Shown in pieces: positions 4,680 through 63,218 of a stretch of DNA of 64,000 nt. Below the pieces are notes generated by a model. The model was given only the letters and a program-made list of their open reading frames with translations, had not been told where the DNA came from and did not search any database. Both the position numbers and the translations under genes were made by a program. The stretch's first letter is position 1. Each line of letters starts with the position of its first letter. The stretch lies in the NCBI GenBank assembly GCA_016180285.1, contig JACPBO010000002.1, forward strand, positions 15,570 through 79,569. The letters run 5' to 3'. The stretch is from Candidatus Woesearchaeota archaeon (GTDB lineage: Archaea; Nanobdellota; Nanobdellia; Woesearchaeales; JACPBO01).

Positions 4680-4680
4680 T

Positions 4681-38488: not shown

Positions 38489-39307
38489 ATGATAGTTCAA
38501 AAAAGTTTTTTGAATAAGTTGAAGGATTTTGGTTTGAATAGTTATGAAGCTAAGTTATGGACGGCGTTGCTTTCTCGCGGCGTTTCTACTGCTGGCGAGT
38601 TAAGCGATATTGCCGGCGTTCCAAGAAGCAGAAGCTACGATGTTCTTGAAAGTTTAGAGAAAAAAGGATTTATAATTATGAAGGTGGGGAAACCAATCAA
38701 ATACCTCGCTGTAAAGCCGGAAGAAGTCGTTGATCGCGTTAAAAAAAGAATAAGGGAAGATGCAGTTAAGGAAGAGGAAATTCTCGAGGAGATCAAAAAA
38801 ACAAACACACTTAGTGAATTGAATCTATTGCACAAGCAGGGCATTGAGCTTGTCGATCCGACTGATTTAAGCGGCAGTATAAGAGGCAGAGACAATATCT
38901 ACAACCACCTCGATTTTATGATAAAGGGCGCTGAAAAATCCGTTGTTTTGGTGACAAGTGCAGATGGCCTTGTTAGAAAATCAAAAGAGCTGAGAAAAAC
39001 ACTGGAAAAAGCAAAAGAAAGGGGAGTTAAGATAAAGATAGCTGCGCCTTTGGGCAAAGAAGCGCAGGAAGCTTATAAAAATTTAAAAGGAATCGCAGAG
39101 CTTAAGCACATAAACGATCCGCAGGCAAGATTTGCTATTGTCGACGGCAAGAGCCTTTTGTTTATGTTGATGGATGACAAAAATGTCCACCCAAGCTACG
39201 ATGTTGCTGTTTGGGTTGCAACACCTTATTTTGCATCTGCATTTGAAAGCTTCTTCAACAATAGCTGGCAGAAACTGGATGCGGCTGAAAAGGCGCTTAA
39301 CAAATAA
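38489..39307 (+). CDS. TrmB-family transcriptional regulator
   Basis: N-terminal FGLNSYEAKLWTALLSRGVSTAGELSDIAGVPRSRSYDVLESLEKKGFI matches the TrmB HTH domain; SD aaGGTGAtgg upstream. Confidence 0.85.
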   Translation: MIVQKSFLNKLKDFGLNSYEAKLWTALLSRGVSTAGELSDIAGVPRSRSYDVLESLEKKGFIIMKVGKPIKYLAVKPEEVVDRVKKRIREDAVKEEEILEEIKKTNTLSELNLLHKQGIELVDPTDLSGSIRGRDNIYNHLDFMIKGAEKSVVLVTSADGLVRKSKELRKTLEKAKERGVKIKIAAPLGKEAQEAYKNLKGIAELKHINDPQARFAIVDGKSLLFMLMDDKNVHPSYDVAVWVATPYFASAFESFFNNSWQKLDAAEKALNK

Positions 39308-41445: not shown

Positions 41446-41601
41446 AAAATTTGTAAAATGTTGGAATTTTCCATCCAGTCTGTGACTGGTGGCGCATTTC
41501 GTGTACTTGCATCAGGAAAATTCCGAGCATGCTCAAAAACCACCCGATGCGACATATTACGGTCACATTCCACCGATCTTTGATTGGTGGTTTTTGAAAT
41601 T

Positions 41602-42033
41602 TTATTTTTGTTTTTTTATGATTTCTTGTAAAGTGTGACTGGCTTCTGAAATAATCCTTGGCTCCTCCATCTTATTTGGGAGTTTGACTATTATGCAATC
41701 AGGTAGTTTGCCTTTTAAAATGAAAATAATACTTCTATTAGAACCCATAAATAAAATATGTTTTTTTCTAAATTCTAAAACCGTGATGGGTGCTGGAAAA
41801 AGATTCTGATATTTTTGTTTCATTGCCATTTTTGCATCTTCCACATTGCATTCTTCAATAGCGGCGACATAGATTTCTGATGGATGAAGTTCTTCTCTGA
41901 TTATAAAAACATCACTTGGTTTAAGACCATACATCTTAAGAACAGTATAAACTGATTTTTTAACCCTTTCTTTGTCAATTTTTACATCTTTCAATAAATC
42001 ATCCAGTTGTTCTTCATTCATACATCTCACCAA
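41602..42033 (-). CDS. Hypothetical protein (143 aa)
   Basis: Clean ORF; no recognisable motif. Confidence 0.4.
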   Translation of the reverse strand: MVRCMNEEQLDDLLKDVKIDKERVKKSVYTVLKMYGLKPSDVFIIREELHPSEIYVAAIEECNVEDAKMAMKQKYQNLFPAPITVLEFRKKHILFMGSNRSIIFILKGKLPDCIIVKLPNKMEEPRIISEASHTLQEIIKKQK

Positions 42034-42144
42034 ATTAATGATTAATTGGCGCGTACTCTCAAGTTACATCCGTCAGCCATCTCCTTTCGGTAAGCTTGGG
42101 TGTTCACACGGTCATCATACACGCCAAAGACAACAGAATATGGT

Positions 42145-43242
42145 TCAATTTATAAGTTTACCCCTCTTCAAAAGTGCCTCTAACACTTCCTGCTTTTCTG
42201 AAGCATATGCAAACCCTATTTTATTATAGAATTTTAAGAGGTTTTCTTTTCCTTTGATATAAAATCTTCCACAAAATTCTCTGCCTTTCTGTTTGCGTAA
42301 TTGGATATGTGAAGTTGCAATGCCAAAATGAGCCAACATAGCTCTTATTTGATTTAGAAACTCAAGCAAGTTGGTCACATGGTTTTTGTTTTTGGATAAT
42401 ACAAACTGGATTCTCCATACGTTGTTTTGCGGTTTTGAACCTTCATTTCCATAAATTATCGACAAGAATGTTTTCTTAATTTTATCAGGGCCATTATAAA
42501 TCCAGTCCGGAATTAAAAATGGAGTGAATACCTTATTGCCGCATGGCACACCCAAATAAATAAGCAATTCAGCAAAACCTTTGCTGCAAAAAACAATTCT
42601 AAAGCAAAATTGGTTGTATTTTAGAGATAGATATTCTCCTTTAAAAATAGAATTGAAATACAATCTAAATTCAACAGCATCTTTATTTTGATTAAAATCA
42701 TACTCTGCTTGCTGTAAGTTTTTTCTTACATGGCCATCACCCATTAAGAAACCAATGTTGGTAACTAAAAAATTTAGAACATGTTCATCATAGAACAGAG
42801 TTAAACCATATTTCTTAACAAAACCAAACTCCCCTATTTCATCAAAATTTAGCTTATGGTTTATTTCTAGATTCTCAAATGTATCCTCAAGTATTAACTC
42901 TTTAATATTCTCTTTATGCTCTAGGTCTGAAGGGACCAAGTAATCATCGTATATTCTTCTCAGTTTTACTCTATTAGAGACGCTGTAAAAATATCCAGAC
43001 TTTAGTTGTGTTGGTGTTCTTATTATTTTATTTTTTGCGTAAAGCCTCGTCATTATTGTAGAAATTGCACTATTGCAAGTGTTGTCTTTATAAATTTCGT
43101 TATAGATATTAGCCATACTCTTAATACCAAAAACCATATCAGGATGTAGCATTAAAATATCATAAACTCTTTTGGATTTTGAACCAATTAACTCTAAATT
43201 CTTAATCTGCATTTTCTGATTGTTGGAGTTCATCTTACGCAC
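42145..43242 (-). CDS. HTH-containing protein with LAGLIDADG-like motifs (possible free-standing homing-endonuclease-like/DNA-binding protein)
   Basis: N-terminal wHTH-like KRVYDILMLHPDMVFGIKSMANIYNEI; central NIGFLMGDGHV and LSIIYGNEGSK resemble LAGLIDADG blocks; divergent from the palindrome-bearing intergenic region. Confidence 0.35.
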   Translation of the reverse strand: MRKMNSNNQKMQIKNLELIGSKSKRVYDILMLHPDMVFGIKSMANIYNEIYKDNTCNSAISTIMTRLYAKNKIIRTPTQLKSGYFYSVSNRVKLRRIYDDYLVPSDLEHKENIKELILEDTFENLEINHKLNFDEIGEFGFVKKYGLTLFYDEHVLNFLVTNIGFLMGDGHVRKNLQQAEYDFNQNKDAVEFRLYFNSIFKGEYLSLKYNQFCFRIVFCSKGFAELLIYLGVPCGNKVFTPFLIPDWIYNGPDKIKKTFLSIIYGNEGSKPQNNVWRIQFVLSKNKNHVTNLLEFLNQIRAMLAHFGIATSHIQLRKQKGREFCGRFYIKGKENLLKFYNKIGFAYASEKQEVLEALLKRGKLIN

Positions 43243-43342
43243 ACTCTTTTCTCCTTTTCATAGCAATTTCTCATTTAAATACCCTCTGTGCGCGCCTGTC
43301 CAGTGGGTTTGCCACCAATAAACCGATATATTTAAATCTTTA

Positions 43343-43440
43343 TACTTACAATGTAAGTAAAACTTAGAAAGATTATTAAACTATACTCACAATGTAAGTA
43401 AAAAACAGCAACATTTTTAATGAAATACTTACATTGACAG
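43343..43440. repeat. Three spaced copies of a 17-bp palindrome TACTTACA-A-TGTAAGTA (putative operator array)
   Basis: Perfect palindrome at 43343..43359; one-mismatch copy TACTCACA-A-TGTAAGTA at 43384..43400; half-site copy TACTTACA-T-TGACAG at 43426..43440. Centres ~41-42 bp apart; TATATATA box follows at 43441..43448, ~50 nt before the ATG at 43498. Confidence 0.6.
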
Positions 43441-43497
43441 TATATATAGGGAAAAATCAAGATTTTTAGTTAATAAAAGTATAGAAACTAAGGCATT

Positions 43498-43782
43498 ATG
43501 CCTTCAAAAAAAGAGAAAGGCCTTATTGAACGAAAAAAAGTCCATTTAAAGCCTAAAGAGTTGAAAGATAGACCTATTTCTTTTAGTCCATACTCTGAAT
43601 TGAAGATTCCTTCAACAATATTTCTTGACCGCGACGTAAGCATTCTTGAAGCGGTTGTTGAATATTTGAAAGATAAAGTCGGCATGACATATCACGAGAT
43701 TGCAGTTCTTCTTGAGCGGGATGATCGCACAATCTGGACCTCCTATAGCCGCGTAAAGAAAAAAAGAGTGAAGAATGTTTGA
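43498..43782 (+). CDS. Small sigma-70 region-4-like/LuxR-like HTH protein (94 aa)
   Basis: C-terminal MTYHEIAVLLERDDRTIWTSYSRVKKKR resembles the sigma-70 r4 HTH (xxEIAxxLgxsxxTVxxxxxRAxKK); paralog at 55315..55548; overlaps giant gene start by 8 nt. Confidence 0.55.
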   Translation: MPSKKEKGLIERKKVHLKPKELKDRPISFSPYSELKIPSTIFLDRDVSILEAVVEYLKDKVGMTYHEIAVLLERDDRTIWTSYSRVKKKRVKNV

Positions 43783-46700
43783 TCTGAAGAGAAAAAAAGA
43801 GGAGCAGAATGAGCTTGAAGATCTTGTTAGCAAGGACTATCATAGAATTGAAGAAGATAAAGTTAAAGAAAAAGCAATAAAGAAATACAAGCCTGAATTT
43901 GTGGTTGCTCTTTTATTGATTGTAGCATCAATGCTTATTTTCAGGGCCGCTTACACTGGCTTGTTTATTTATGGCGAGGCAGGTTATTCTAAAGAGCTTA
44001 ATTTGACATTTAATGAAACAGCAACTTACAATCTATTTTTAAACGCAAGCCCGCTTTCTTTAAAGCTTTCTGGCTCCGTAGTCGGGAATGGTTATGCTAA
44101 GGTTTATTTGTTGGATAATGGAATCAGAAAATTGATTGTTGATAGCTCTCAATTGCAAACTTCTTATGATTTAATAACTGCTTATGCTATTGCTGAAGAA
44201 TTTTTGAACGAAACAAATATTCCGGAGAATATTACAAACACAACTGAAGCAATAAACCAAACAACAAATGCGGCAGAGAACATTGCGGAAATTGCAAATC
44301 AAACAAATTTAACCGAAACAAGCCCGACTTTGCCTGAAAACATAACAGAACCCGCCAATCAAACAGAAAACATCGCAATAAATCGTGCTCCCGTATGGAT
44401 TTTTGATGCCGATTCATTTATTGTGGCTGGAAATTTAACAATAAACCTTTCGCAGTATTTTATTGATCTTGACAATGATTCTATTTCTTACATTGTTTCA
44501 GAGCCTGAAAACGTGCTTATTTTAAAAGAATTTGAAATGATAACCTTGGCGCCAGATGCAAATATCGTCGGGAATAGAACAATTAAGATATTTGCTTCTG
44601 ATCTAAAAAACACAACTGAAAAAGAAGTTACACTGGTTATTAACACAACAAAAGAGGCTGCTGAAACTGCTCCTGAAAACATAACAATTCCCGTAAAAGT
44701 GTTTGACAGCATTTGTGTTGATACGTGTTTCTTAACAGGCGTTGGCAGAAATATAACTTTATTGATCGAAATAGAGAATGCAACACTGAACTTAACAAAA
44801 TTAGAATATGATGCAAAACCTGAAAATATAACTGCCAATAACCCGCCGCAATGCAGCCTGATCCCAAATGTCAATATTTCTAAAAATGAGCTTTCTACAA
44901 TATGGCTGGATAAATACTGCTCAGATGCCAATGATGATACTTTGAGTTATGATGTTTCTCTTAGTTCAAAAGAAGTTGATACAATGATCACAAAAGATAT
45001 GGTTACGTTTATTCCGAGAAAGAATTTTGTCGGAACAACATTCATGTCCTTCGTAGTGAATGATTCTAAGAACATAACTTTCACAAATATAATTGTCATT
45101 AATGTAACAGGCAACATAACTGAGAAAAAAAGAAATGCAACGATTAATCTAAAAAACAATAAAAAAGAAAAAACAGGCAGTTATAGCTTAACAAACAACA
45201 GCGACGAAACATTTGATTTGGAGCTCAGCAATCTGCCTGGCTTTGGAGTTTTAGAGAAGAAAAAGGAATCCAGAATAAATATTAAAAAAATAAAAGAACT
45301 GAAAGACGCCGATGTTTTAATTGATGCAATAGAAGACAACAGAATAGGAACAGATGTATTTGCAATAAATGAAACCCTTGATTTTGAAAGCGCAGCAATA
45401 ACTTTAGCTAAGAATTCTGATGTGAATTCAGTGTTTTACTGCTCTGATTTTGATTTTGAAACCTTGTCTTGCTCAAATTGGCAGAAAACAGACATTCCAT
45501 TTACAGATAATGGAAATACAATAACATTCAATGTAACTCATTTCTCGGCTTATGCTGGCGGTTTGACAATAATAAATGTATACAGCCATCCTTCTTTATA
45601 TGGAAACTGGATAGTTGGCTTTAATACTACAGGAGCCGCTAATTTGACAATAACAGCTACAAGAGAGAGCAATTACACCAACATCTACACGAGATGGAGC
45701 AATGAAAGCGAAGATTCTGGATTGTACGATTTAAGATTTCTCGAAGTAAAGTGCGGCAATCAGACTATGAATTACGAATGGCAAGGAACAAACTGCTTTG
45801 AGCAGGAGTGCAGCGTATTTATTGCCAACTATTCATGTAATGAAACTGCGCAAGAGATAAGCAAAGTTTTGACGGCAAAAAGGCACGTCTTGAAGTTTGA
45901 GTTTGGCGGGCAGATTGCATATGCTTACAATGCCGTTGGAAACGAAAGCTCAGATTCAGGAACAGACGAGTGGAGGATGTTTGGCAGATACCTTAATCAG
46001 ACGCGTTATACAAACTCAGCAGCTCCTACAAATCTGGCTAATGCAAAGATTATAACATTTTCAAGTACAAGTACTATTCAGTCTTCTCCTGCTGTTGCCA
46101 ACGGCTATGTGTATGTTGGCAGTGATGATGCCAAGCTATACCAGCTTAATGCTTCTAATATCAGCCAGCAAGTAGCGAGTTTTTCAGCAGCCGGCGCTAT
46201 TTATTCCTCGCCTGCTGTTGCTGATGGCTATGTTTATATTCTGAATTACAATACAACAATATACCAACTCAATGCCTCAAATGTCAGCCAGAAGATAGCA
46301 AGCTTTTCAACTGGCGGAGGCTTTTATAATACACAATCTTCTCCTGTTGTTTCCAATGGCTTTGTCTATGTTGGAAGCTCGCTAGGAGTGTTATATCAGC
46401 TTAATGCATCCAATGTCAGCCAAAAAATAGCAAATTTCACAGCCGGCGATGGCATGTATACTGTGCCTGCTGTTGCCAATGGCTTCGTGTATGCAGGAAG
46501 CAATGATGCTAAATTATACCAGCTTAATGCATCCAATGTCAGCCAGCAGATAGCAAATTTCTCAGCCGGAGTCTTTTATTCTTCTGCTGCAGTTGCCAAT
46601 GGATTTGTATATGTGGGAAACGATGATGGTAATCTATACCAGCTTAACGCATCAAATGTCAGCCAAAAAATAGCAAATTATTCAACTGGCGGGGCCATTA

Positions 46701-48193
46701 GATCTTCACCTGCAGTTGCTAACGGCTATGTGTATGTTGGAAGCAACGATAACAGAACATATCAGCTTAATGCAACCAATGTTAGTTTGTTAATCGCAAG
46801 CTATACAGCAAATAATAACATCCAATCTTCTCCTGCTGTTACTGACAGTTATGTATTCATTGGCAGCTACGATGATAAGCTATACCAGCTTAATGCAACC
46901 AATATTAGCATATTGGTGTCAAGCTATACAACTAGCGGCGATGTTATCTCTTCTCCTGCAGTTGCTAATGGCTCTGTTTATGTTGGAAGTCTTGATTGGA
47001 AACTATACCAGTTTATATTGGATGTAACTTACCCATCCATCAACTTCACACAGCCGCCAACACCTCCTAATGGCACAACAACAAAAAACACCTCTGTCCA
47101 GATAAACATAAGCATTACAAATGCCTCTGATTTGGCAGAGTTCAAATGGAACTGGAACGGAACAAATTACACTTTCTACAACGCTTCTTTAGTATTGATG
47201 ATGAACTTCGACAATGTTTCTTCAATTGGAGAGAGTGCGACAAATGCCGTTGATGTCAGCAAATACGGAAATAATGGGACTCTTACAAATGGAGCTGTTT
47301 GGAATTGCAGTAGCGGAAAATATGGATGTGCCTTGCAATTCGATGGTATTAATGATTTAGTCAGTATTCCTGACAGCTCTAGTTGGGACTTTGGTAATCG
47401 TGATTTCACAGTGAATCTTTGGGTGAATTTCAAAAATCTTAGTTATGCCTCATTTATTGACCAATTTTGGTCTGTAAGAGCATGGGTTATCGGATATAAT
47501 GCAACTGCGTTATATTTCCGTTATAGTACAGACGGGACTACTGTTAACGGAGATCATACTGTTCCATGGTCCGCAAATAATAATACTTGGTACTACATTA
47601 CTGCTCTCCGCTCTGGATCAAATATTCGGCTTTATGTTGATGGCTCGCAAATTGGTTCTGACTTTAATGCAGGAACTGATGTAATTTATAATTCAAATAA
47701 GGCGCTTTGGGTAGGTTGCGCCCATACAGGGGGCGGTGGCGATACCCCGGGTTTTTGTCTCAACGGTTCAATCGACGAAATCCGCATCTGGAACAGAAGC
47801 CTAAGTGCAGCAGAAATTAACCAATCATACATGTCAAATCTGTACAAATACGACACAGACAAATGGGCGTTCTATACAAATCAGACTAATTTGACAAATG
47901 GAAGTTACACATATTTTGGTTATGTAAAAGATATAACTGGGAATTCAAACCAGACCGAAGTCAGAACATTGACAATAGGAAACACAGCGCCTACAGCTAC
48001 AAACATAATTCTAAATTCAACAGATTCGCTGAACAGGACAAATGGGACTTTACAAGGATTCTGGACTTTTTCAGATGCTGATGGCGACACGCAACAGAAT
48101 AATGAAACAATGTGGTACAACAACAGCGTAGAAATCGTAAGTTTGAGAAATAACAAAGAACGAAAACTGGACTTTCTCTGTAAGGGTCTATGA
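43775..48193 (+). CDS. Giant surface protein, N-terminal segment (1472 aa): signal-anchor, ~12 PQQ-like beta-propeller repeats, LamG/ConA-like lectin domain; likely 5' part of a frameshifted ~3850-aa gene
   Basis: N-terminal TM FVVALLLIVASMLIFRAAYTGLFIYG. Repeated SSPAVANG[YF]VYVGSxDxKLYQLNASNVSQ units (PQQ-like). LamG-like signature ...LYVDGSQIGS...IDEIRIWNRSLSAAEINQSY. Extremely rich in N-x-S/T sequons. Ends abruptly inside an FN3/Ig-like repeat also present in the downstream ORF. Confidence 0.8.
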   Translation: MFDLKRKKEEQNELEDLVSKDYHRIEEDKVKEKAIKKYKPEFVVALLLIVASMLIFRAAYTGLFIYGEAGYSKELNLTFNETATYNLFLNASPLSLKLSGSVVGNGYAKVYLLDNGIRKLIVDSSQLQTSYDLITAYAIAEEFLNETNIPENITNTTEAINQTTNAAENIAEIANQTNLTETSPTLPENITEPANQTENIAINRAPVWIFDADSFIVAGNLTINLSQYFIDLDNDSISYIVSEPENVLILKEFEMITLAPDANIVGNRTIKIFASDLKNTTEKEVTLVINTTKEAAETAPENITIPVKVFDSICVDTCFLTGVGRNITLLIEIENATLNLTKLEYDAKPENITANNPPQCSLIPNVNISKNELSTIWLDKYCSDANDDTLSYDVSLSSKEVDTMITKDMVTFIPRKNFVGTTFMSFVVNDSKNITFTNIIVINVTGNITEKKRNATINLKNNKKEKTGSYSLTNNSDETFDLELSNLPGFGVLEKKKESRINIKKIKELKDADVLIDAIEDNRIGTDVFAINETLDFESAAITLAKNSDVNSVFYCSDFDFETLSCSNWQKTDIPFTDNGNTITFNVTHFSAYAGGLTIINVYSHPSLYGNWIVGFNTTGAANLTITATRESNYTNIYTRWSNESEDSGLYDLRFLEVKCGNQTMNYEWQGTNCFEQECSVFIANYSCNETAQEISKVLTAKRHVLKFEFGGQIAYAYNAVGNESSDSGTDEWRMFGRYLNQTRYTNSAAPTNLANAKIITFSSTSTIQSSPAVANGYVYVGSDDAKLYQLNASNISQQVASFSAAGAIYSSPAVADGYVYILNYNTTIYQLNASNVSQKIASFSTGGGFYNTQSSPVVSNGFVYVGSSLGVLYQLNASNVSQKIANFTAGDGMYTVPAVANGFVYAGSNDAKLYQLNASNVSQQIANFSAGVFYSSAAVANGFVYVGNDDGNLYQLNASNVSQKIANYSTGGAIRSSPAVANGYVYVGSNDNRTYQLNATNVSLLIASYTANNNIQSSPAVTDSYVFIGSYDDKLYQLNATNISILVSSYTTSGDVISSPAVANGSVYVGSLDWKLYQFILDVTYPSINFTQPPTPPNGTTTKNTSVQINISITNASDLAEFKWNWNGTNYTFYNASLVLMMNFDNVSSIGESATNAVDVSKYGNNGTLTNGAVWNCSSGKYGCALQFDGINDLVSIPDSSSWDFGNRDFTVNLWVNFKNLSYASFIDQFWSVRAWVIGYNATALYFRYSTDGTTVNGDHTVPWSANNNTWYYITALRSGSNIRLYVDGSQIGSDFNAGTDVIYNSNKALWVGCAHTGGGGDTPGFCLNGSIDEIRIWNRSLSAAEINQSYMSNLYKYDTDKWAFYTNQTNLTNGSYTYFGYVKDITGNSNQTEVRTLTIGNTAPTATNIILNSTDSLNRTNGTLQGFWTFSDADGDTQQNNETMWYNNSVEIVSLRNNKERKLDFLCKGL
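46060..47000 (+). repeat. Tandem ~120-bp near-identical DNA repeats encoding PQQ-like blades
   Basis: Recurrent strings such as taccagcttaatgcatccaatgtcagcca at ~46390, 46510, 46630. Confidence 0.6.
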
Positions 48194-48230
48194 TGGAACA
48201 GACTGGAGCAGCTGGGTTAATTCCAGCGTT

Positions 48231-51200
48231 TTGGCAATTGCAAACACAATGCCTGTTGCATCAAACATTCAAACAAACAATACCTTGCCAATTACAAATG
48301 AATTTGTTGCATTTAATGCAACATGGACAGATGCCGATCTGAATGATTTAAAGGGCTATATTTTTTCATCCAACTTCAATGGAACTTGGGCGAATGAAAC
48401 ACCAATCTCTTTTGGCGGGACAACGAATTACAGCAATTATTCAAAGCAAGTTCCGTCAACTTATGGAGAATATCAATGGAGGATTTATGCTAATGATTCT
48501 GACGGGGCATGGAATGATACGGAGATACAATACATAACAATTATTTCAAATTCAAGCGAATGGCCAATGTTCCATCACAACATAGTGCATACAGGCCATA
48601 CTTCTTCAGCAAGTCCAACAATAAACAACACAAGATGGATTTTTATAACGCAGGGTTCAGCACAATCGTCGCCAGCTATTGTAAACGGGGTTGTTTACAT
48701 TGGATCTAACGACAACAGAACCTACGCATTAAATGCTTCAACAGGAGCCCATATCTGGAATTTCTCAACAAAAAATAGCGTAATATCTTCTCCTGCTGTT
48801 GCAAACAATATTGTTTATGTTGGATCGTATGATAACAACACTTATGCATTGAACGCTTCTACTGGGGCCCATATCTGGAATTTCTCAACCAATGGCAGCA
48901 TAGACTCTTCTCCAGCAGTTGTTAATGCCATAATGTATGTTGGCTCAAGGGATAAAAAGATTTATGCACTGAATGCGTCTACTGGAGCACATATTTGGAA
49001 CTTTACAACCGGCAATAGCATAATCTATTCTTCGCCAACAATTGCCAAAGGGATTTCATACATTGGCTCAAATGATGGCAAAACTTACGCATTAAATGCT
49101 TCAACAGGCGCTCACATCTGGAACTTTTCACCTTCCAGTACAGGCGTGGTTCCGACAACAATAGTCTTTAATGATGTTGCTTATACTGCAAGCAATAACT
49201 TATATGCATTGAACGCTTCCACTGGAGCGCATATTTGGAATTACTCGGCTGCCAGCGGATCAATTGAATCATCTCCGGCAATTGACAATGGCGTTGTGTA
49301 CCTTGGCGATTTATCTAATATGCTCAACATGGTTAATGCAACCAGCGGTGCATCTATAAGAAATGTAACAGTAGCTGATATGATAGATTTTTCTTCTCCA
49401 GCAATAGCAAATAGCATCATTTATTTCGGGGATATCTCTGGCAAGTTTTACGCAATAAATGCATCCAATGGGGTTAATGTTTGGAACTACACCAGCGGCA
49501 ACCAGCAAATAATATCCTCGCCCGCAATAGCAGATGGTGTTGTTTATGTTGGCGCCGATAACGGGATAATATATGCTTTCGGTTCAAACAGAGCGCCAAC
49601 AGCAACGAACATAATTTTGAATTCAACAGATCCCCAGAACAGGACAAACGGCACTTTAAGCGGCTTCTGGACGTTTTCCGAACAGGATTACAACGATACG
49701 CAGCAATTAAATGAAACAACATGGTATAACAACAGCGTAGAAGTTACGCAATTTAGAAACATAACATCCATAGGCAGAAATGCAACTAAAAATCAGAACT
49801 GGACTTTTTCAGTTAGAGTCTATGACGGAGAAGACTGGAGTAATTGGAGTAACTCTTCAACTATCACAATACAAAATACTGCTCCAACACAATCCACTCC
49901 AATCATAAACTCTTCAATGGGCTTGAATAAGACAAACGAAACATTATACTGCTTCAATCAGTCAACAGCCGACATAGATGGCGATGCAATATCAAACAAG
50001 ATAAGGTGGCTCAATAATTCCGCTGCAATCATCGCATTGGAAAATTTAACATCAATAAGCCATGGCAACACAACAAAGAACGAAAACTGGACTTGTGAAA
50101 TAACGCCTTTTGACGGAACTGCATACGGAACGGCATTAAACTCTTCAATTTTGACAATAGCAAATTTGGCCCCAACAGCAACAAACATAATTTTGAACTC
50201 ATCTATGAAGTTGAATAAGACAAATGAAACGCTTCAAGGATTCTGGACTTTTTCAGATGCTGATGGCGACACGCAACAGAATAATGAAACAATGTGGTAC
50301 AACAACAGCGTAGAAATCGTAAGTTTGAGAAATGACATAGATGGCGATACGATAACAAACAGAATAAGATGGCTCAATAATTCAATCGCTGTTGCATCGC
50401 TGGAAAACCAAACTTCAATTGGTCATGGCAACACAACAAAACTGCAGAACTGGACTTGCGAAGTAACACCTTATGATGGAACTGATCATGGAACAGCATT
50501 GAATTCTTCAATATTAACAATAGCAAACTCAATTTCGGCTACAAGCAATGTTACAACCTACCCAACACTCGCTTACAAAAACAACACTTTGAACTGCTCT
50601 GCTGTTTATAATGATGCAGACAATGATATCGGAACAGTTTATTTCAGCTGGTATAAAAATAATGCAAGGCAAAATAGTTATACAACTTCGCTTGTAGCAG
50701 GCAATGGGGCTGGAGGGTATGCTGAAGGCAATGTTACTAGTGCAATGTTTAATTATCCCGGTCACCTTGCTGTTGACTCAGCAGGAAACACACTTTATCT
50801 GACAGATTACTTCAATGCCAAAGTTAGAAAAGTAAATTTAACAACAAATACAACCTCGCTTATTTCAGGCGGTTTTGTTGGTTCTTGGGGCATTGTTTTG
50901 TTCAATGATACGACACTTTATGTCAGCGACTGGGATAATTGCACAATACAAAAAATAAATTTAGCAATGAATGCGACTTCTACTGTAGCAGGAAATGGCA
51001 CTTGCGGATATGCAGAAGGAACAGGAAGCAGCGCAATGTTTAACAACCCAAGTGGCCTTGCTGTAAATTCAAACGGCACTTTCTTGTATGTTGCAGATTA
51101 CAGCAATAACAGAATAAGAAGAATTGATTTAACCACAAACACAACATCTCTGATCGCAGGCAATGGAACAGCAGGATACACAGAAGGTGTGGGAAATCAA

Positions 51201-54200
51201 ACAAAGTTTAACAATCCTTACGCAGCCACAATTAGTCCGGACAATCATTACTTGTACATCTCAGACTCAGGGAGTCATAGGATCAGACGCATTGATTTAA
51301 CCACAAACACAACATCTCTGATCGCAGGCAATGGAACAAGAGGATATCTGGAAGGAACAGGAATTAATGCAATGCTTAATGGCCCTGATCAAACATCGAT
51401 GAATTCAGAAGGAACAATGCTTTATTTCATTGAACCATCGGGCAATAGAGTCAGGGCAATCAATTTAACCACAAACACAACCTTGCTTGTTGCAGGCAAT
51501 GGAACTCCCGACTATTTGGAAGGCAGTTTTATCAATGTAATGGTTTCTGGGGAGGGTCTTGTTTCAAACCCAAGCGGAACGAAACTTTACATATCTGATA
51601 GCAATAACAACAGAATTCGCGTCATCAATCTAAATAACTCATACGACGCTACAGTTGCCAATGTTACAAGCGGAACATTAGCATGGACAAACATTTTTGT
51701 GCCCTCATCTGCATTAACCAAGAATGACAACTGGACTTGCAGCGCAATAGCATATGATGGAACCATATTTAGCAATTGGGTAAATTCCAGCAGCGTAATG
51801 ATCAACAACTCAGCACCAATCCTGAACTCTTCAATCTCAGCTCAAAACTGGAGTGAAGGCGGATCAGCAACAATCAATCTTTCGCTTTATTTCACAGACA
51901 TAGATAATGACAATCTGATTTATAATTCAACAATGCCGTCCGACATCACAATATCTATAAACCAGACATCAAAGATTGCAGCATTAACAGCAGTCGGCTC
52001 GTGGTATGGTGAAAATTTCATAACATTCAATGCAACAGACGGCTCTTTAAATGCAACAAGCAACAACATAACATTGACCCTCTCAAATATAATAAGATGC
52101 GGTGATGGAATAAAAGAAGGCTCTGAAGAATGCGATGACGGCAATACAGTAAGCGGCGATGGGTGTTCTGCATCATGCGCAATAGAAGGTAGCGGCGGTG
52201 GAGGGTCGGGAGGAGGCGGCGGAGGAGTAACCCCGCCAGCGCAGCCTACTCAGCCGCCGCCTGAACAGCCGCCTCAGCCAACTCCTGAAGAGCAGCCGCC
52301 AGAACTTCCTCCAGAACAGCCGCCGCAAGTGGAATTTCCGGAAACCATAACTCAGCCGCAGACAATAATAATAGCAGGAGCTACATCAACCATCAACACA
52401 GTACCGTGCTTCAACTACACAGAAAACAAAACACTTGCATTAAAGCAAAGCAATATAACTAAAGCGATGAATATCCCAAAAGGCTACTCTGTTTTAATCA
52501 ATCCCTTCAGCCCGGACTGCGCAAAAGGATCTTTAACTTTAACATTCAACATTCCAAATAACTATGTTGATGTAAACGCATTAAAATGCAAAGGCGATGA
52601 ATGCTCCCCGGCAATAATAGAGGAAACAACAAAGCTGAAATGCGGCGGGAAAATAGTGAAGGAATTCAGGCGAAACACATCATACCTGGAGCCAATATTA
52701 ATGCCTATCAACATTACAAAAACTGACATGATTATAAAATATGAAAAAGATACTATTGAAAGCGGAAAATACAAAATAAAATTCTTGAATGAAATCAACC
52801 AGAAAGTCAGCATTTCAATGCCTTCTGAAGCAGTAAGAGAGCCAGAAAACACAAACTTGAAGATTATAGCAACTCCTTTGATTGTAACATTCGAAAACAG
52901 AACAGCAATCAATGCAGTTATCTCGTTGCCTTACATCTTGGGCAAAAACATTGAAAATGACAGCATTGCAATATACATTAAAATAAATGAAACATGGAAC
53001 CATATAGGCGGCGACATAAATTATGAAGAAAACAAAATAACAGCAACAATGAATAATTTGGAAGAATTCTTGGACGAAAACAACCAGGCAACAATAGCCG
53101 TAATGGGGATTATCTGCTTATACTGCGAAAAATCTGAATTAAATAAGGTTTATGATCCTAAAACAAGCAGGGAAGCAGTAATTCTGGTTCATGGCTTTGA
53201 AAGAAGCCCGGAAAGATTCAATGACATAATAAATGACATCAAATTAACAAGGCAGCCATGGCAGACATGGACATTCGCATACCCTTCTTCAAAAACAATA
53301 GAGGAAAATGGAAAGCAATTTGCAGAGCTGCTCGAGCTTAACATCAACGAATATGATAACCTCTACTTTGTTGCGCATTCATTAGGCGGGCTAATAACGC
53401 AGCAGGCGCTTTATTACGGCTATGAGCATAATTACAGCTTTGTAAATAAGGCAAGAAAGGCAGTTTTAATAGCATCGCCGAACAAAGGATCTATCTCAGA
53501 AGGAGTTTACAGAAATTTATATAATTTCCTTATGAACAGCAAGACAGCGGAATTGTTCAACATAAAGGGGGCCGTGGTCAAAGAATTAGTCTACGGCAAA
53601 GCAATCCCAGAAGTTCCGGGTATGGAATACAAGGTAATAGCCGGAACAAAAAGCTACGGCTTTGTAAAAATAACAAAAAGCAATGATGGCTTAGTAACAG
53701 TTGAAAGCGCGCAGACAGTTGGTGGAAAGATAATAAATAACAGCTGCGAGAATTACTGGGCCATCAATGTAACGCATACAGATATTCTGGATAATATTGA
53801 ATCAAAGCAGATCATAGAAAGGATAATCGCAGAGGAAGTTGCCAAAGTTGTCGGAAGCGGAAAATCCCTTTTAGGCAGCAATCAATATATAGAATTGAAT
53901 ATCCCGGAATGCAGTTATGAAGACACATATGTTATTGTCGGCAAAGAAATAAAGGAAGAAAAATTGCCGGACATAACAGGATGCAGCTGCGGAAATGGCT
54001 ATTGCGGCCTGGATGAAACAGCAGCAAGCTGTCCGCAAGACTGCGCAAGAATAATTTCCAAGGAAAACATTGAGCTTATAGCGTTGCTGGCATTGGCTGT
54101 TGTGTTGTTGATGTCTTTAATGGCGGCATTAACAGCGCTTTACAAGAAGATAAGAAGGCACAAGATAGGAAGGCCATTGAGATACACATTACTTACTTTA

Positions 54201-55325
54201 ATAACTGCAGGCGCAGCAATATACCTTGCAAAGAGCTATTTTGTTGACGACAAATATCAGTTTTTAGGCAATGCAGTTGCAATGATTTTGGCTTTGGCTG
54301 TTTTCTTCATTCTGTTCTTCTTCTCATCAAAGTTGCTTAACTTGATTTTAAAGCACACAAGGATAAAGCAGGCTAAAATCCCAATCAAAGCTAAACCGAA
54401 ATTGCAGCATAAACTATTGCCTGATTTCAAAAATCTCATCAAAGTCCTGCACGAAAATCTGGCAATCCGGCTGCGAAACTATGAAAATAAAAGAAAATTA
54501 TTGAAGTCATTAAAAGAAAAGAAGCTTCAGGAATTAAGAGCCAAAAAAGAATTAGAGAGAAAAAGAAGAGCAGCAGAGCAGGAGAAGGTAAGGCTCTTAA
54601 AAGAGCAGGAAAGAATAAGAAAACTGGAAGAGCAGGAAAGACTTAAGAAATTAGAAGAAGAAAGAAAGAAAAGAGAGCTTGAAGAAAAAGAAAGATTAAA
54701 AACATTTAAAGAAATAGAAAAACAAAGAATTCTGGAAGACATAAGAAAATTAAAAGCAATAAAAACCAAGGTTTCTGATGCGGCTATTCTGCTCAAAGAG
54801 AATGTCAATAAGGCAAAACAGCTCTATCTTGAGATTCTTGAGAATTACAAAAAGCTTGCTGCAGGCAAGAGAAAAGATGTTTACAATGAAGTAATCGGCT
54901 TGTATGATAAACTCAAAGAAGCAGCAAGGCTTGAAAAATACATTAAAAATACATTAAACGCAGTTATTGATAAGAAACTTACAATTGATCAGTTAAAATC
55001 TGCATTGAGGCAGAAAGGATGGAATAAAGACGCCATAGAAGCGGCATTGGCAGCAGCAAAGCAGGAATTCTACAGAGAGAGAATAAAAGAAGTAACAGAC
55101 AAGATTGAGGCTGCAAAGAAAGAATACTGCAAGCCAATCTACAACAACATCATAGATGTATATGCATATCTTGGCCTAGATGATCTATTTGAGGCAAAGA
55201 GGCTGTATCTGAGAACTCTAGAACTCTATGCCAGATCGCCGTCTTATGTTCAAGCTGAAGTTTACAATGACTTGCAGAAGCTCTATCGCCTGCTGTTCAA
55301 GAGAGGAATGGGGAATGCCAAATAA
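48231..55325 (+). CDS. Giant surface protein, C-terminal segment (2364 aa): PQQ and NHL beta-propellers, Ig/FN3-like repeats, Cys-rich module, Pro-rich linker, PGAP1-like alpha/beta-hydrolase domain, CGNGYCG stalk, TM, coiled-coil K/E-rich cytoplasmic tail
   Basis: No N-terminal signal peptide (starts at a TTG inside a repeat). PQQ-like SSPAIVNGVVYIGSNDNRTYALNASTGAHIWNF x~8. NHL-like GNGTxGYxEG...FNNPxGLAV...YVADxxNNRIRRIDLTTNTTSLIAGNGT x~5. CGDGIKEGSEECDDGNTVSGDGCSASC. PPAQPTQPPPEQPPQPTPEEQPPELPPEQPP. Lipase-like VILVHGF...FVAHSLGG...IASPNKGS. CSCGNGYCGLDETAASCPQDC then TM IALLALAVVLLMSLMAALTALY. Coiled coil KKLQELRAKKELERKRRAAEQEK... Tail motif LTIDQLKSALRQKGWNKDAIEAAL. Confidence 0.8.
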   Translation: MAIANTMPVASNIQTNNTLPITNEFVAFNATWTDADLNDLKGYIFSSNFNGTWANETPISFGGTTNYSNYSKQVPSTYGEYQWRIYANDSDGAWNDTEIQYITIISNSSEWPMFHHNIVHTGHTSSASPTINNTRWIFITQGSAQSSPAIVNGVVYIGSNDNRTYALNASTGAHIWNFSTKNSVISSPAVANNIVYVGSYDNNTYALNASTGAHIWNFSTNGSIDSSPAVVNAIMYVGSRDKKIYALNASTGAHIWNFTTGNSIIYSSPTIAKGISYIGSNDGKTYALNASTGAHIWNFSPSSTGVVPTTIVFNDVAYTASNNLYALNASTGAHIWNYSAASGSIESSPAIDNGVVYLGDLSNMLNMVNATSGASIRNVTVADMIDFSSPAIANSIIYFGDISGKFYAINASNGVNVWNYTSGNQQIISSPAIADGVVYVGADNGIIYAFGSNRAPTATNIILNSTDPQNRTNGTLSGFWTFSEQDYNDTQQLNETTWYNNSVEVTQFRNITSIGRNATKNQNWTFSVRVYDGEDWSNWSNSSTITIQNTAPTQSTPIINSSMGLNKTNETLYCFNQSTADIDGDAISNKIRWLNNSAAIIALENLTSISHGNTTKNENWTCEITPFDGTAYGTALNSSILTIANLAPTATNIILNSSMKLNKTNETLQGFWTFSDADGDTQQNNETMWYNNSVEIVSLRNDIDGDTITNRIRWLNNSIAVASLENQTSIGHGNTTKLQNWTCEVTPYDGTDHGTALNSSILTIANSISATSNVTTYPTLAYKNNTLNCSAVYNDADNDIGTVYFSWYKNNARQNSYTTSLVAGNGAGGYAEGNVTSAMFNYPGHLAVDSAGNTLYLTDYFNAKVRKVNLTTNTTSLISGGFVGSWGIVLFNDTTLYVSDWDNCTIQKINLAMNATSTVAGNGTCGYAEGTGSSAMFNNPSGLAVNSNGTFLYVADYSNNRIRRIDLTTNTTSLIAGNGTAGYTEGVGNQTKFNNPYAATISPDNHYLYISDSGSHRIRRIDLTTNTTSLIAGNGTRGYLEGTGINAMLNGPDQTSMNSEGTMLYFIEPSGNRVRAINLTTNTTLLVAGNGTPDYLEGSFINVMVSGEGLVSNPSGTKLYISDSNNNRIRVINLNNSYDATVANVTSGTLAWTNIFVPSSALTKNDNWTCSAIAYDGTIFSNWVNSSSVMINNSAPILNSSISAQNWSEGGSATINLSLYFTDIDNDNLIYNSTMPSDITISINQTSKIAALTAVGSWYGENFITFNATDGSLNATSNNITLTLSNIIRCGDGIKEGSEECDDGNTVSGDGCSASCAIEGSGGGGSGGGGGGVTPPAQPTQPPPEQPPQPTPEEQPPELPPEQPPQVEFPETITQPQTIIIAGATSTINTVPCFNYTENKTLALKQSNITKAMNIPKGYSVLINPFSPDCAKGSLTLTFNIPNNYVDVNALKCKGDECSPAIIEETTKLKCGGKIVKEFRRNTSYLEPILMPINITKTDMIIKYEKDTIESGKYKIKFLNEINQKVSISMPSEAVREPENTNLKIIATPLIVTFENRTAINAVISLPYILGKNIENDSIAIYIKINETWNHIGGDINYEENKITATMNNLEEFLDENNQATIAVMGIICLYCEKSELNKVYDPKTSREAVILVHGFERSPERFNDIINDIKLTRQPWQTWTFAYPSSKTIEENGKQFAELLELNINEYDNLYFVAHSLGGLITQQALYYGYEHNYSFVNKARKAVLIASPNKGSISEGVYRNLYNFLMNSKTAELFNIKGAVVKELVYGKAIPEVPGMEYKVIAGTKSYGFVKITKSNDGLVTVESAQTVGGKIINNSCENYWAINVTHTDILDNIESKQIIERIIAEEVAKVVGSGKSLLGSNQYIELNIPECSYEDTYVIVGKEIKEEKLPDITGCSCGNGYCGLDETAASCPQDCARIISKENIELIALLALAVVLLMSLMAALTALYKKIRRHKIGRPLRYTLLTLITAGAAIYLAKSYFVDDKYQFLGNAVAMILALAVFFILFFFSSKLLNLILKHTRIKQAKIPIKAKPKLQHKLLPDFKNLIKVLHENLAIRLRNYENKRKLLKSLKEKKLQELRAKKELERKRRAAEQEKVRLLKEQERIRKLEEQERLKKLEEERKKRELEEKERLKTFKEIEKQRILEDIRKLKAIKTKVSDAAILLKENVNKAKQLYLEILENYKKLAAGKRKDVYNEVIGLYDKLKEAARLEKYIKNTLNAVIDKKLTIDQLKSALRQKGWNKDAIEAALAAAKQEFYRERIKEVTDKIEAAKKEYCKPIYNNIIDVYAYLGLDDLFEAKRLYLRTLELYARSPSYVQAEVYNDLQKLYRLLFKRGMGNAK

Positions 55326-62327: not shown

Positions 62328-63218
62328 ATGGAAATCGTATTTTTAGGGACATCCTGCATGGTGCCGACCAAGGAAAGGAATCACAGCGCGCTTCTGCTTA
62401 CTTACAAGAACGAAGGCATTTTAGTTGACTGCGGAGAGGGAACGCAAAGGCAGCTGAGAATAGCAGACATCAGGCCCACAAGAATTACGAAGATACTGAT
62501 AAGCCACTGGCACGGAGATCATGTTCTTGGTCTTCCGGGCTTACTGCAGACATTGAGCGCAAGCGGGTATCCTGGAACACTGGAGATTTACGGGCCAGCA
62601 GGAACAAAAAAACGATTTAAGGCAATGTTTCAGGCTTTTGTCTTTGACTGCAACATAGACTTAAAAATAAGCGAGATAAAGAAAAGAAAATTCTTTGAAA
62701 ATGAGGACTTTTATCTGGAAGCCCTGGAGTTAGAGCACAAAATCAAATCATTCGGCTTTAATTTCATTGAAAAAGACAGGAGAAAAGTTGACATTGCCGC
62801 AGTAAAGAAGCTTGGCATTCCGCAGGGCCCATTAGTTGGAAAGCTGCAGCAGGGAGAGAATATAATCTTCAAAAACAAAAAAATAACTCCAAAAGAAGCA
62901 ACATTCATTGAAAAGGGAAAGAAGATAACAATAATAAATGACACTGTTCTGTGCAAATCCTGCTATGATCTGGCAAAAGACGCTGATTTGCTGATCTGCG
63001 AAGCTGCTTACACTTCAAAACTTGAAGAAAAAGCTCAGGAATACAAGCACCTTACAGCAAAGCAGGCAGCATTATTGGCGGGCAAGTCAAACGTCAAAAA
63101 ACTGATAATAACGCATTTCAGCCAGAGATACAAAACAACAGAAGAGCTGTTTGAAGATGCGAAAGAAGCTTTTGACAATGTTTTGTGCGCGTATGATTTT
63201 ATGAAAGTAGAGATTTAA
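62328..63218 (+). CDS. rnz: Ribonuclease Z (tRNA 3' processing, metallo-beta-lactamase fold)
   Basis: MEIVFLGTSCMVP...ALLL...ILVDCGEGTQRQL...ILISHWHGDHVLGLPGLL (HxHxDH motif); 296 aa. Confidence 0.9.
   Translation: MEIVFLGTSCMVPTKERNHSALLLTYKNEGILVDCGEGTQRQLRIADIRPTRITKILISHWHGDHVLGLPGLLQTLSASGYPGTLEIYGPAGTKKRFKAMFQAFVFDCNIDLKISEIKKRKFFENEDFYLEALELEHKIKSFGFNFIEKDRRKVDIAAVKKLGIPQGPLVGKLQQGENIIFKNKKITPKEATFIEKGKKITIINDTVLCKSCYDLAKDADLLICEAAYTSKLEEKAQEYKHLTAKQAALLAGKSNVKKLIITHFSQRYKTTEELFEDAKEAFDNVLCAYDFMKVEI

What the first reader, a model, noticed from the sequence alone, without database searches (positions are those of the whole stretch)
48100..48240. The two giant ORFs (43775..48193 and 48231..55325) are probably one ~3850-aa gene interrupted by a frameshift at a recombined repeat junction
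ORF 43775..48193 ends abruptly (…SLRNNKERKLDFLCKGL*) inside a repeat. That repeat elsewhere reads …RN.TSIGxNxTKNENWTFSVRVYDGxDWSxWxNSS. The alternate frame across 48150..48230 encodes exactly …TKNENWTFSVRVYDGTDWSSWVNSS and continues into the downstream ORF. The downstream ORF starts at a TTG and has no signal peptide despite extracellular-type domains and a C-terminal TM. Segment 48040..48150 is an exact ~105-bp duplicate of 50231..50335, and the sequence after the junction matches another unit at ~50078. This points to a repeat-mediated recombination or deletion, or an assembly collapse, or a slippage-prone site.
Basis: seen in the sequence. Interest (0 to 1): 0.62.

Follow-up and report, generated by a model that had tools for sequence, protein, structure and literature searches.

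The report
Giant archaeal surface-protein gene split by frameshift
The two huge neighbouring reading frames are the two halves of one roughly 3,850-residue cell-surface protein gene of a tiny DPANN (Woesearchaeota) archaeon, broken by a small out-of-frame gap where repeated gene segments recombined; this is an ordinary kind of gene break, and here it is well documented.

Summary
ORF1 (43775..48193) stops inside a repeat unit. The +1 frame is open from 48147 and encodes the rest of that unit, before any possible start codon of ORF2 (48231..55325).

- **Exact duplicate:** it is 99 bp, 48053-48151 = 50235-50333.
- **Junction:** right after it (48151|48152) unit A lacks 23-26 nt. Unit A is 262 nt where its paralogues are 288. 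The next 23 nt are identical to unit C.
- **Source:** a Candidatus Woesearchaeota MAG. NCBI annotates the two halves as separate proteins, MBI2128670.1 and MBI2128671.1.
- **Ortholog:** the syntenic locus in GCA_030651135.1 has one uninterrupted 5,150-aa ORF. It is collinear with ORF1's N-terminus and ORF2's C-terminus.
- **Selection:** ORF2 shows the same purifying selection as ORF1 (dN/dS 0.08-0.22), so the break is recent.
- **Export:** ORF2 has 100 N-glycosylation sequons but no signal peptide, promoter-like motif or Shine-Dalgarno motif.
- **Recoding:** no slippery run or significant RNA structure supports it.

Still untested is whether reads support the junction itself. An independent k=31 assembly confirms only that the 99-bp block has two left-hand contexts. 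Interest is low: a frameshifted giant adhesin-like gene that should be re-annotated.

The parts
43498..43782 (+). Small conserved upstream ORF (94 aa). Its stop overlaps the ATG of the giant gene (ATGTTTGA). It has a weak helix-turn-helix-like signal.
   Evidence: It is conserved at 90% identity or more and sits in the same position in relatives L015, L016 and L019. Pfam gives only sub-threshold Sigma70_r4_2 / HTH_23 hits.
43775..48193 (+). ORF1, the N-terminal 1,459 residues of the giant protein plus a 13-residue out-of-frame tail (MBI2128670.1). It holds the N-terminal anchor, a first PQQ-like beta-propeller, a LamG domain and the start of unit A.
43886..43969 (+). The only N-terminal transmembrane or signal-anchor segment of the whole locus (ORF1 residues 38-65).
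   Evidence: Hydropathy scan. The same segment is present in the ortholog's N-terminus.
47981..48242 (+). Repeat unit A, 262 nt instead of 288, so not a multiple of three. It is absent at this position in the ortholog.
48053..48151 (+). 99-bp tract, copy 1, identical to 50235-50333 in unit D.
   Evidence: Logan contig L011 ends at 48082, exactly 30 nt into the tract.
48151..48152 (+). The junction (...GAGAAAT|AACAAAG...). Here 23-26 nt coding ~ITSIGxNx are missing and the reading frame shifts by +1.
48152..48174 (+). 23-nt tract identical to unit C (50072-50094), immediately after the junction.
   Evidence: (family D8).
48147..48230 (+). +1-frame stretch encoding the conserved end of unit A (EITKNENWTFSVRVYDGTDWSSWVNSSV). 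It lies upstream of any possible ORF2 start codon.
48231..55325 (+). ORF2, the C-terminal 2,364 residues (MBI2128671.1). It holds a second PQQ-like propeller, units B-D, an NHL propeller, Big_9 and DUF4215 domains, an alpha/beta-hydrolase, C-terminal TM segments and a coiled-coil tail.
49586..49873 (+). Unit B, the complete 288-nt unit. It is the only unit with a positional ortholog in GCA_030651135.1.
49874..50161 (+). Unit C, a complete 288-nt unit of a second sequence type. It is absent in the ortholog.
50162..50524 (+). Unit D, a 363-nt in-frame hybrid. It has a C-type unit start, then the 99-nt A-type tract, then restarts at the DIDGD position of a C-type unit. It is absent in the ortholog.
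50235..50333 (+). 99-bp tract, copy 2. It ends exactly at unit D's internal discontinuity.
53178..53450 (+). Core of the alpha/beta-hydrolase (DUF676-type serine esterase, AHSLGG motif). This lies within the stretch of the protein that is best conserved against the ortholog (81-94% identity over fused residues 3101-3500).
54051..54353 (+). C-terminal membrane region: two strong hydrophobic segments (54051-54146 and 54255-54353) with a weaker one between them. A sequon-free K/E-rich tail follows.

Best explanation
ORF1 and ORF2 are the two halves of one giant gene for a membrane-anchored, heavily N-glycosylated surface protein (about 3,850 aa when the frame is mended) of a Candidatus Woesearchaeota (DPANN) archaeon.

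The gene carries about 288-nt repeat units that exchange sequence with each other. Unit A now reads [99 nt identical to unit D][23 nt identical to unit C], and the 23-26 nt that normally lie between these two tracts are missing. The unit is 262 nt, so everything downstream is shifted by +1.

The most economical mechanism is inferred, not shown. A break in unit A was repaired by copying from the paralogous units C and D. Unit D is itself an in-frame hybrid, and its similarity to unit A stops exactly at the end of the 99-nt tract. Homologous copying therefore could not continue past that point, and the ends were joined imprecisely.

Consequences, also inferred:
- Translation from the single promoter and N-terminal anchor ends at 48193. 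This gives a 1,472-aa anchored stump with propeller 1 and LamG.
- The downstream 2,364 codons hold propeller 2, the NHL domain, the esterase, the C-terminal membrane anchor and the cytoplasmic coiled coil. They have no start signal or export signal of their own, so they are not made or not exported.
- The break is recent. ORF2 is still fully open and shows the same purifying selection as ORF1.
For: **One gene**
- The syntenic locus in GCA_030651135.1 runs PolD DP2 - DP1 - Cdc6 - TrmB - AAA - small ORF - giant gene - the same downstream genes. It has one 5,150-aa ORF.
- Collinear matches: fused residues 1-596 with ortholog 1-567 (76%), 1501-2040 with 3012-3548 (82-89%), and 2301-3851 with 3593-5150. 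Both end in ...GNAK.
- Conserved unit residues are encoded in the +1 frame upstream of any ORF2 start codon.
- ORF2's first 1,985 residues have 100 N-x-S/T sequons (5.0 per 100 aa, against 0.2-0.8 in cytoplasmic proteins of the window). They have no hydrophobic segment before residue 1941. The only N-terminal anchor is in ORF1.
- No TATA-like or Shine-Dalgarno-like motif occurs in 47950-48260.

**Recombination junction**
- 99/99 identity to unit D and 23/23 identity to unit C flank the gap, while the unit flanks are about 65-85% identical.

**Recency**
- dN/dS is 0.08-0.22 for ORF2 segments against 0.11-0.18 for ORF1 segments, at dS 0.7-1.1.

**Partial independent support**
- Logan k=31 contigs from SRR4343430 and other runs are 100% identical to the window.
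- They stop exactly 30 nt into the 99-bp tract (L011 ends at 48082) and 30 nt into the only other exact repeat (L006 ends at 51309).
- The tract therefore has two left-hand contexts in the reads.
Against: - The junction 48151|48152 itself could not be checked against reads or an independent contig. Logan products cut by contig ends are not indexed.
- The window differs from a Logan contig of the same strain by a clean 55-nt indel at 62327. Indel-type discrepancies therefore exist for this assembly, whether from strain variation or from error.
- Only one full-length ortholog was found, and it lacks unit A altogether. The intact state of unit A is inferred from paralogues B and C, not observed.
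- The direction of sequence transfer between A, C and D is inferred.
Confidence: 0.62

Rival explanations
1. It is the same single gene, but the 23-26-nt gap is not in the organism's DNA. It is an error of the metagenomic assembly, scaffolding or polishing, made where reads from units A, C and D are ambiguous.
For: - The gap lies exactly at the end of the longest exact repeat in the window, where short-read assemblers and polishers are least reliable.
- ORF2 shows no decay at all.
- The window also lacks 55 nt that an independent Logan contig of the same strain carries at 62327.
- The junction could not be verified independently.
Against: - De Bruijn assemblers cannot create a junction whose k-mers are absent from the reads. 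The two sides of the junction share no long identical stretch that could be collapsed.
- Everything else that could be compared is 100% identical between the window and the Logan contigs over about 26 kb.
- A recent real mutation predicts an intact ORF2 equally well.
Confidence: 0.27
2. The frameshift is real and is bypassed or exploited. Either programmed +1 ribosomal frameshifting restores the full-length protein, or recombination among the units switches the gene on and off in the population, as a form of phase variation of a host-attachment protein.
For: - ORF2 is under purifying selection and fully open.
- A +1 slip on TTT-C at about 48176 is formally possible from the sequence.
- The units clearly exchange sequence.
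Against: - The ortholog has no frameshift and no unit A, so the site is not conserved.
- A slip inside the 46-nt overlap would replace the conserved TKNENWTF motif with out-of-frame residues.
- No homopolymer of 5 nt or more and no SD-like stimulator is present.
- The downstream RNA fold is not significant: z = -1.36, and 16 of 200 shuffles fold as well.
- No population data exist.
Confidence: 0.06
3. They are two independent functional genes: an anchored N-terminal protein and a separately translated downstream protein.
For: - NCBI annotates two CDS, MBI2128670.1 and MBI2128671.1.
- ORF2 is intact.
Against: - The ortholog is one ORF.
- Conserved coding sequence precedes ORF2's first possible start.
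- ORF2 has a TTG start with no SD or TATA motif.
- An ectodomain with 100 sequons has no export signal.
Confidence: 0.03

Closest known systems
Giant membrane-anchored extracellular proteins of DPANN archaea, for example the LamG-rich surface proteins and the 8,880-9,409-aa proteins of cultivated nanohaloarchaea (PMC10266531, which cites Hamm et al. 2019 and Castelle et al. 2015/2018)
   Same: - Very large, membrane-anchored and predicted to be extracellular.
- Contains a LamG domain. The nearest sequence relatives are LamG proteins of Woesearchaeota, Pacearchaeota, Micrarchaeota and Aenigmarchaeota.
- Differs in module content between otherwise collinear genomes (and the paper).
- Proposed role in attachment to a host.
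   Different: - The domain set here is two PQQ-like propellers, an NHL propeller, a DUF676-type esterase and a cytoplasmic coiled-coil tail.
- No VirB4/TraG-like ATPase, as described for the nanohaloarchaeal giants, was detected.
- In this genome the gene is broken.
Frameshifted (split) genes / recent pseudogenes in repeat-containing surface-protein genes
   Same: - Two adjacent same-strand ORFs that together match one orthologous ORF.
- The break lies inside a repeat.
- The downstream part has no start or export signals of its own.
   Different: - The break is not at a simple-sequence tract.
- It lies at the joint of two tracts copied from paralogous units: 99 nt identical to unit D and 23 nt identical to unit C.
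Programmed +1 ribosomal frameshifting (prfB-type, antizyme-type)
   Same: A +1 shift would be needed to join the two frames.
   Different: - No conserved shift site or stimulator.
- Not conserved in the ortholog.
- The homology break shows missing nucleotides, not a recoding site.

Membership tests
Single gene split by a frameshift (pseudogene or assembly frameshift) | Both ORFs are adjacent on the same strand and together are collinear with one uninterrupted orthologous ORF in a syntenic locus. | tested here: met
   GCA_030651135.1 has one 5,150-aa ORF in the same gene neighbourhood. Collinear matches cover both halves.
Single gene split by a frameshift (pseudogene or assembly frameshift) | Protein homology continues in another frame across the break, upstream of any start codon of the downstream ORF. 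| tested here: met
   The +1 frame at 48147-48230 encodes TKNENWTFSVRVYDGTDWSSWVNSS. The first start codon is at 48231.
Single gene split by a frameshift (pseudogene or assembly frameshift) | The frameshift is present in the organism's DNA (read support). | not testable with these tools
   Only the left boundary of the 99-bp tract is confirmed by an independent k=31 assembly. The contig holding the junction could not be retrieved.
Programmed ribosomal frameshift | The frameshift site is conserved in orthologs. | tested here: not met
   The ortholog is in one frame and lacks unit A.
Programmed ribosomal frameshift | A slippery sequence plus a stimulatory element (an SD-like motif, or a stable downstream structure). 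| tested here: not met
   No SD-like motif and no homopolymer of 5 nt or more. The fold of 48140-48290 gives z = -1.36.
Simple-sequence contingency locus (phase variation by slipped-strand mispairing) | A homopolymer or short tandem repeat tract at the frameshift site. | tested here: not met
   No run of 5 nt or more in 48100-48240. The missing piece is 23-26 nt of unique unit sequence.
Diversity-generating retroelement target (template / variable repeat pair) | The two repeat copies differ at adenine positions of the template. | tested here: not met
   The two copies are 99/99 identical. No reverse transcriptase was seen among the ORFs scanned, but that scan was not exhaustive.
DPANN giant membrane-anchored surface proteins | Several thousand residues, a membrane anchor, extracellular-type domains including LamG, and encoded in a DPANN archaeal genome. 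| tested here: met
   - About 3,850 aa when fused, with an N-terminal TM segment and LamG, propeller and Ig-like domains.
- Named Candidatus Woesearchaeota by NCBI.
- Archaeal replication genes lie in the window.
- The closest homologs are DPANN LamG proteins.
DPANN giant membrane-anchored surface proteins | Surface location and a role in host attachment. | not testable with these tools
   Inferred only from sequon density (5-6 per 100 aa) and from the literature on related organisms.

The most novel reading that the evidence does not exclude
The break is real and is one state of a reversible switch. Gene conversion among the paralogous ~288-nt units toggles the reading frame of a giant host-attachment protein. 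Cells in the population would then display either the full 3,850-aa protein (with its esterase and cytoplasmic tail) or only the 1,472-aa anchored stump. This would be repeat-recombination-driven phase variation in an episymbiotic DPANN archaeon.
Probability: 0.06. Interest if true: 0.6.

Novelty: new member of a known kind. Interest (0 to 1): 0.24.

Why it matters
**Annotation.** MBI2128670.1 and MBI2128671.1 should be treated as one frameshifted gene, not as two 'PQQ-binding-like beta-propeller repeat proteins'. Counts of 'giant proteins' in DPANN genomes miss cases like this one.

**Biology.** The locus gives a clean two-genome picture of how such surface-protein genes evolve. Whole modules differ between species:
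- The ortholog has about 1,440 extra residues with additional LamG modules.
- This genome has three extra ~96-aa units.

Short tracts are also copied between units, and one such exchange broke the frame. If the break is real, this strain lacks the distal two-thirds of its largest surface protein. That missing part includes its best-conserved stretch, which contains an extracellular esterase.

Tried and rejected
- **Exact look-ups of ORF1 and ORF2** with ATG starts in the contig index: not on record. The same was true for P0121, which is ORF2 with its TTG start read as M.
- **Retrieving the Logan contig that should span the junction.** It was predicted to cover 48122-50264 from the k=31 repeat map.
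  - Exact look-up of five predicted cut products found nothing. Two positive controls, the cut products of L006 and L011, were also absent, so cut products are simply not indexed. This route is a dead end.
- **Peptide-pattern scans** of genome contigs and metagenome contigs found only distant propeller or LamG relatives (Bathyarchaeia and others), not orthologs. Neither this MAG nor GCA_030651135.1 was found in those collections.
- **Searching for a third lineage** across the junction. Relatives L015, L018 and L019 (SRR22387954, SRR13727527) cover only the first 1,329-1,368 or the last 846 residues of the giant gene. Whether unit A was gained here or lost in the ortholog therefore stays open.
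- **Run accessions** were not found in the paper library.
- **tRNA and Rfam scans** of the window found nothing.
- **Rejected explanations:** transcriptional slippage or simple-sequence phase variation (no runs); a DGR pair (100% identity); classic repeat collapse (no shared sequence across the joint).


Full report
**1. Checking the observation**

The ORF table shows 43775..48193 (+, 1472 aa, ATG) followed by 48231..55325 (+, 2364 aa, TTG). ORF1 ends ...WYNNSVEIVSLRNNKERKLDFLCKGL*.

Read one base further on (+1), the frame has a TGA at 48144-48146. It then reads EITKNENWTFSVRVYDGTDWSSWVNSSVLAIANTMPV... straight into ORF2. This frame contains no ATG, GTG or TTG before 48231.

The exact duplicate is 99 bp: 48053-48151 = 50235-50333. 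It is one of only two exact repeats of 31 nt or more in the whole 64-kb window.

The gene holds about 96-residue (288-nt) units, which I call A to D:
- A, from 47981
- B, 49586-49873
- C, 49874-50161
- D, 50162-50524

Aligned at the DNA level, unit A lacks 23 nt relative to B and 26 nt relative to C, directly after the 99-bp tract. At the protein level it lacks the ~ITSIGxNx segment. The 23 nt that follow the gap (48152-48174) are identical to unit C at 50072-50094.

Unit D is a 363-nt in-frame hybrid. It has a C-type unit start, then the 99-nt tract, and then restarts at the DIDGD position of a C-type unit. The observation therefore holds, with slightly different coordinates for the duplicate.

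**2. What the locus is**

The window is archaeal chromosome. It carries MCM with an intein, PolD DP2 and DP1, Cdc6/Orc1, TrmB, an AAA ATPase, Hjc, a histone, tRNA-splicing endonuclease and FEN1.

An exhaustive profile search returned a protein identical to ORF2 apart from M for the TTG start. Cluster look-up identifies the proteins:
- ORF1 is MBI2128670.1.
- ORF2 is MBI2128671.1.
- Both are named 'PQQ-binding-like beta-propeller repeat protein [Candidatus Woesearchaeota archaeon]'.
- They sit on a 97,128-bp contig whose neighbouring genes carry HYU07_ locus tags.

The public annotation therefore treats them as two genes.

Pfam finds these domains:
- ORF1: a PQQ-like/ACSF4-type beta-propeller and a LamG domain.
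- ORF2: a second such propeller, NHL repeats, Big_9, DUF4215 and a DUF676-type alpha/beta-hydrolase with an AHSLGG motif.

**3. Are they one gene?**

The small ORF just upstream (43498..43782) has a stop that overlaps the ATG of ORF1. It belongs to a 90%-identity cluster with members on long contigs.

One member lies in GCA_030651135.1, contig JAUSCS010000006.1 (731,608 bp). The neighbourhood there is the same: PolD DP2, DP1, Cdc6, TrmB, AAA and the small ORF. One gene of 5,150 aa follows. Downstream come the same 76-, 85-, 101- and 99-aa genes and TYW2.

I joined the two overlapping loci, whose 3,789-nt overlap is identical. The joined gene translates without a stop. For comparison I built a 'fused' protein from ORF1 up to ...SLRN plus the +1 frame.

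| Fused window protein | Ortholog | Identity |
|---|---|---|
| 1-596 | 1-567 | 76% |
| Propeller 1 and LamG | 2012-2999 | about 54% (49-84% per 100-aa window) |
| 1501-2040 | 3012-3548 | 82-89% |
| 2301-3851 | 3593-5150 | 48-94% |

Both proteins end in ...LFKRG.GNAK. Collinearity runs across the ORF1/ORF2 boundary inside one ORF.

Internal evidence agrees:
- The only N-terminal transmembrane anchor is in ORF1, residues 38-65.
- ORF2 has no hydrophobic segment before residue 1941.
- Its first 1,985 residues carry 100 N-x-S/T sequons, or 5.0 per 100 aa. ORF1 has 5.8 per 100 aa. MCM, PolD, Cdc6, AAA and FEN1 have 0.2-0.8.
- Its K/E-rich tail has none.
- No TATA-like or Shine-Dalgarno-like motif lies in 47950-48260, although several other genes of the window show them.

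The fused protein has a coherent topology: cytoplasmic N-terminus, anchor, about 3,800-aa ectodomain, C-terminal membrane segments, cytoplasmic coiled coil. The number of C-terminal segments (two strong and one weak) is an inference.

**4. The nature of the break**

In the ortholog the LamG module is followed directly by ...ILTIANVAPTAANITTNNTLPITN.... Unit A is not there. At the DNA level the window has 262 extra nucleotides between two copies of the unit-boundary motif.

A unit HMM finds four units plus one split unit in the window. The ortholog has only unit B plus the split unit. Units A, C and D therefore differ between the two species.

Nucleotide identities:

| Comparison | Identity |
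|---|---|
| Unit A vs unit B | 77% |
| Unit A vs the ortholog's unit B | 77% |
| Unit B vs its ortholog | 82% |
| Neighbouring unique domain vs its ortholog | 81.5% |

Unit A is therefore not a fresh copy of B. With only two lineages, gain here and loss there cannot be told apart.

Within unit A, the 99-nt tract is 100% identical to D but 75-77% identical to B-type units. The following 23 nt are 100% identical to C. These are the marks of recent gene conversion between paralogous units, and the gap lies exactly between the two tracts.

My inference is that a break in unit A was repaired using units D and C as templates. D's similarity to A ends at the last base of the 99-nt tract, because D continues with GACATAGATGG..., a different part of the unit. 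Homologous copying had to stop there, and the ends were joined with a net loss of 26 nt. This explains why the end of the tract coincides with a discontinuity in both units without invoking two independent events. The opposite direction of transfer (A to D) is not excluded.

**5. How old, and is it bypassed?**

Codon-level comparison with the ortholog:

| Region | dN/dS |
|---|---|
| ORF1 N-terminus | 0.11 |
| ORF1 LamG | 0.18 |
| ORF2 segments | 0.08-0.22 |

dS is 0.7-1.1 outside the more diverged LamG segment (2.2). The stretch of ORF2 containing the esterase is 81-94% identical. ORF2 was therefore under purifying selection for essentially the whole time since the two species split. The break is very recent, not real, or compensated.

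Recoding is unlikely:
- The required shift is +1 within a 46-nt overlap.
- There is no homopolymer of 5 nt or more and no SD-like motif.
- The downstream RNA folds no better than shuffles, z = -1.36.
- Any slip there would replace the conserved TKNENWTF motif.
- The ortholog has no such site.

**6. Real mutation or assembly error?**

Logan (k=31) contigs from runs of at least two accession series (SRR43434xx and SRR121133xx-121134xx) match the window. The longer ones (L006-L013) match at 100% and L014 at 99.9%, over about 26 kb in total.

L011 (SRR4343430) ends at 48082, exactly 30 nt into the 99-bp tract. L006 ends at 51309, exactly 30 nt into the other exact repeat. This is the behaviour expected of a k=31 graph. 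It shows that the tract is entered from two different left contexts in the reads.

The contig that should carry the junction (48122-50264) could not be fetched. Its only gene has no stop codon, and cut products are not indexed.

One caution: L006 carries 55 nt at window position 62327 that the window lacks. Clean indel differences therefore exist between this assembly and another assembly of the same strain.

A de Bruijn assembler cannot invent the junction k-mers, and the two sides of the junction share no sequence to collapse on. I therefore put about 0.6 on a real mutation and about 0.27 on an assembly or polishing artefact.

**7. Comparison with what is known, and verdict**

Giant membrane-anchored, LamG-rich surface proteins are a known feature of DPANN archaea. 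They differ between otherwise collinear genomes and are proposed to mediate host attachment (PMC10266531). The nearest sequence relatives of this region are LamG proteins of Woesearchaeota, Pacearchaeota, Micrarchaeota and Aenigmarchaeota.

This gene is a member of that loose class, with its own domain set. Its split is a standard frameshift-type disruption. The result is useful for annotation and illustrates module shuffling, but it is not surprising. Interest is about 0.24.

Noticed in passing
window 43344-43358, 43385-43399, 43427-43441 (and L016 9839-9945): Three copies of a 15-nt palindromic box (ACTTACAATGTAAGT, ACTCACAATGTAAGT, ACTTACATTGACAGT) lie 41-42 nt apart. The third abuts a TATATA element about 50 nt upstream of the small ORF that precedes the giant gene. 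The search found 11 matches with up to 3 mismatches in the window against 2.4 expected. The three boxes are almost letter-for-letter conserved in the ortholog, although coding DNA is only about 80% identical. They look like operator sites controlling the operon of the small ORF and the giant gene.
   Followed up: partly
window 62327/62328 versus L006 4134-4188: A Logan contig of the same strain (SRR4343430) is otherwise 100% identical. It carries 55 extra nt directly upstream of the ATG of the metallo-beta-lactamase-fold gene 62328..63218. This is either strain-level indel variation in a promoter region or a deletion in the window's assembly.
   Followed up: partly
window ~41540-43300: Two extra minus-strand genes lie between the AAA ATPase gene and the small ORF: 41602..42033 (143 aa) and 42145..43242 (365 aa, with a LAGLIDADG_3 hit above Pfam's whole-protein cut-off, E 1.6e-05). 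They are absent from the orthologous loci L015, L016 and L019. Logan contigs of the same strain from several runs break at 41515-41544. This suggests a mobile homing-endonuclease-like insertion, or population heterogeneity at that point.
   Followed up: partly
window 26213-29512: The MCM helicase gene contains an intein (Intein_splicing plus a LAGLIDADG_3 domain, residues ~392-809). The relative GCA_030651135.1 has a 1,099-aa MCM in the same 90% cluster, annotated as 'LAGLIDADG family homing endonuclease'.
   Followed up: no
window 31805-38489: PolD large and small subunits and Cdc6/Orc1 are adjacent on the minus strand. A ~240-nt intergenic gap lies before the divergently oriented TrmB gene. 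This is a typical archaeal replication-origin neighbourhood. Origin repeats were not searched for.
   Followed up: no
ortholog gene (L016 10272 onward, joined with L017), residues 568-2011: The 5,150-aa ortholog carries about 1,440 residues, including additional LamG modules, that the window's gene lacks. It lacks units A, C and D. In both genomes one further unit appears to be split by the NHL propeller: N-terminal half at fused 2269-2300 and C-terminal half at 2612-2677.
   Followed up: partly
window 6249-11498 and 16680-19706 (minus strand): Two further large ORFs (1,749 and 1,008 aa) have N-terminal hydrophobic segments and moderate sequon density (1.8-1.9 per 100 aa). The larger has Ig-like domain hits. 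They are probably additional surface proteins.
   Followed up: no
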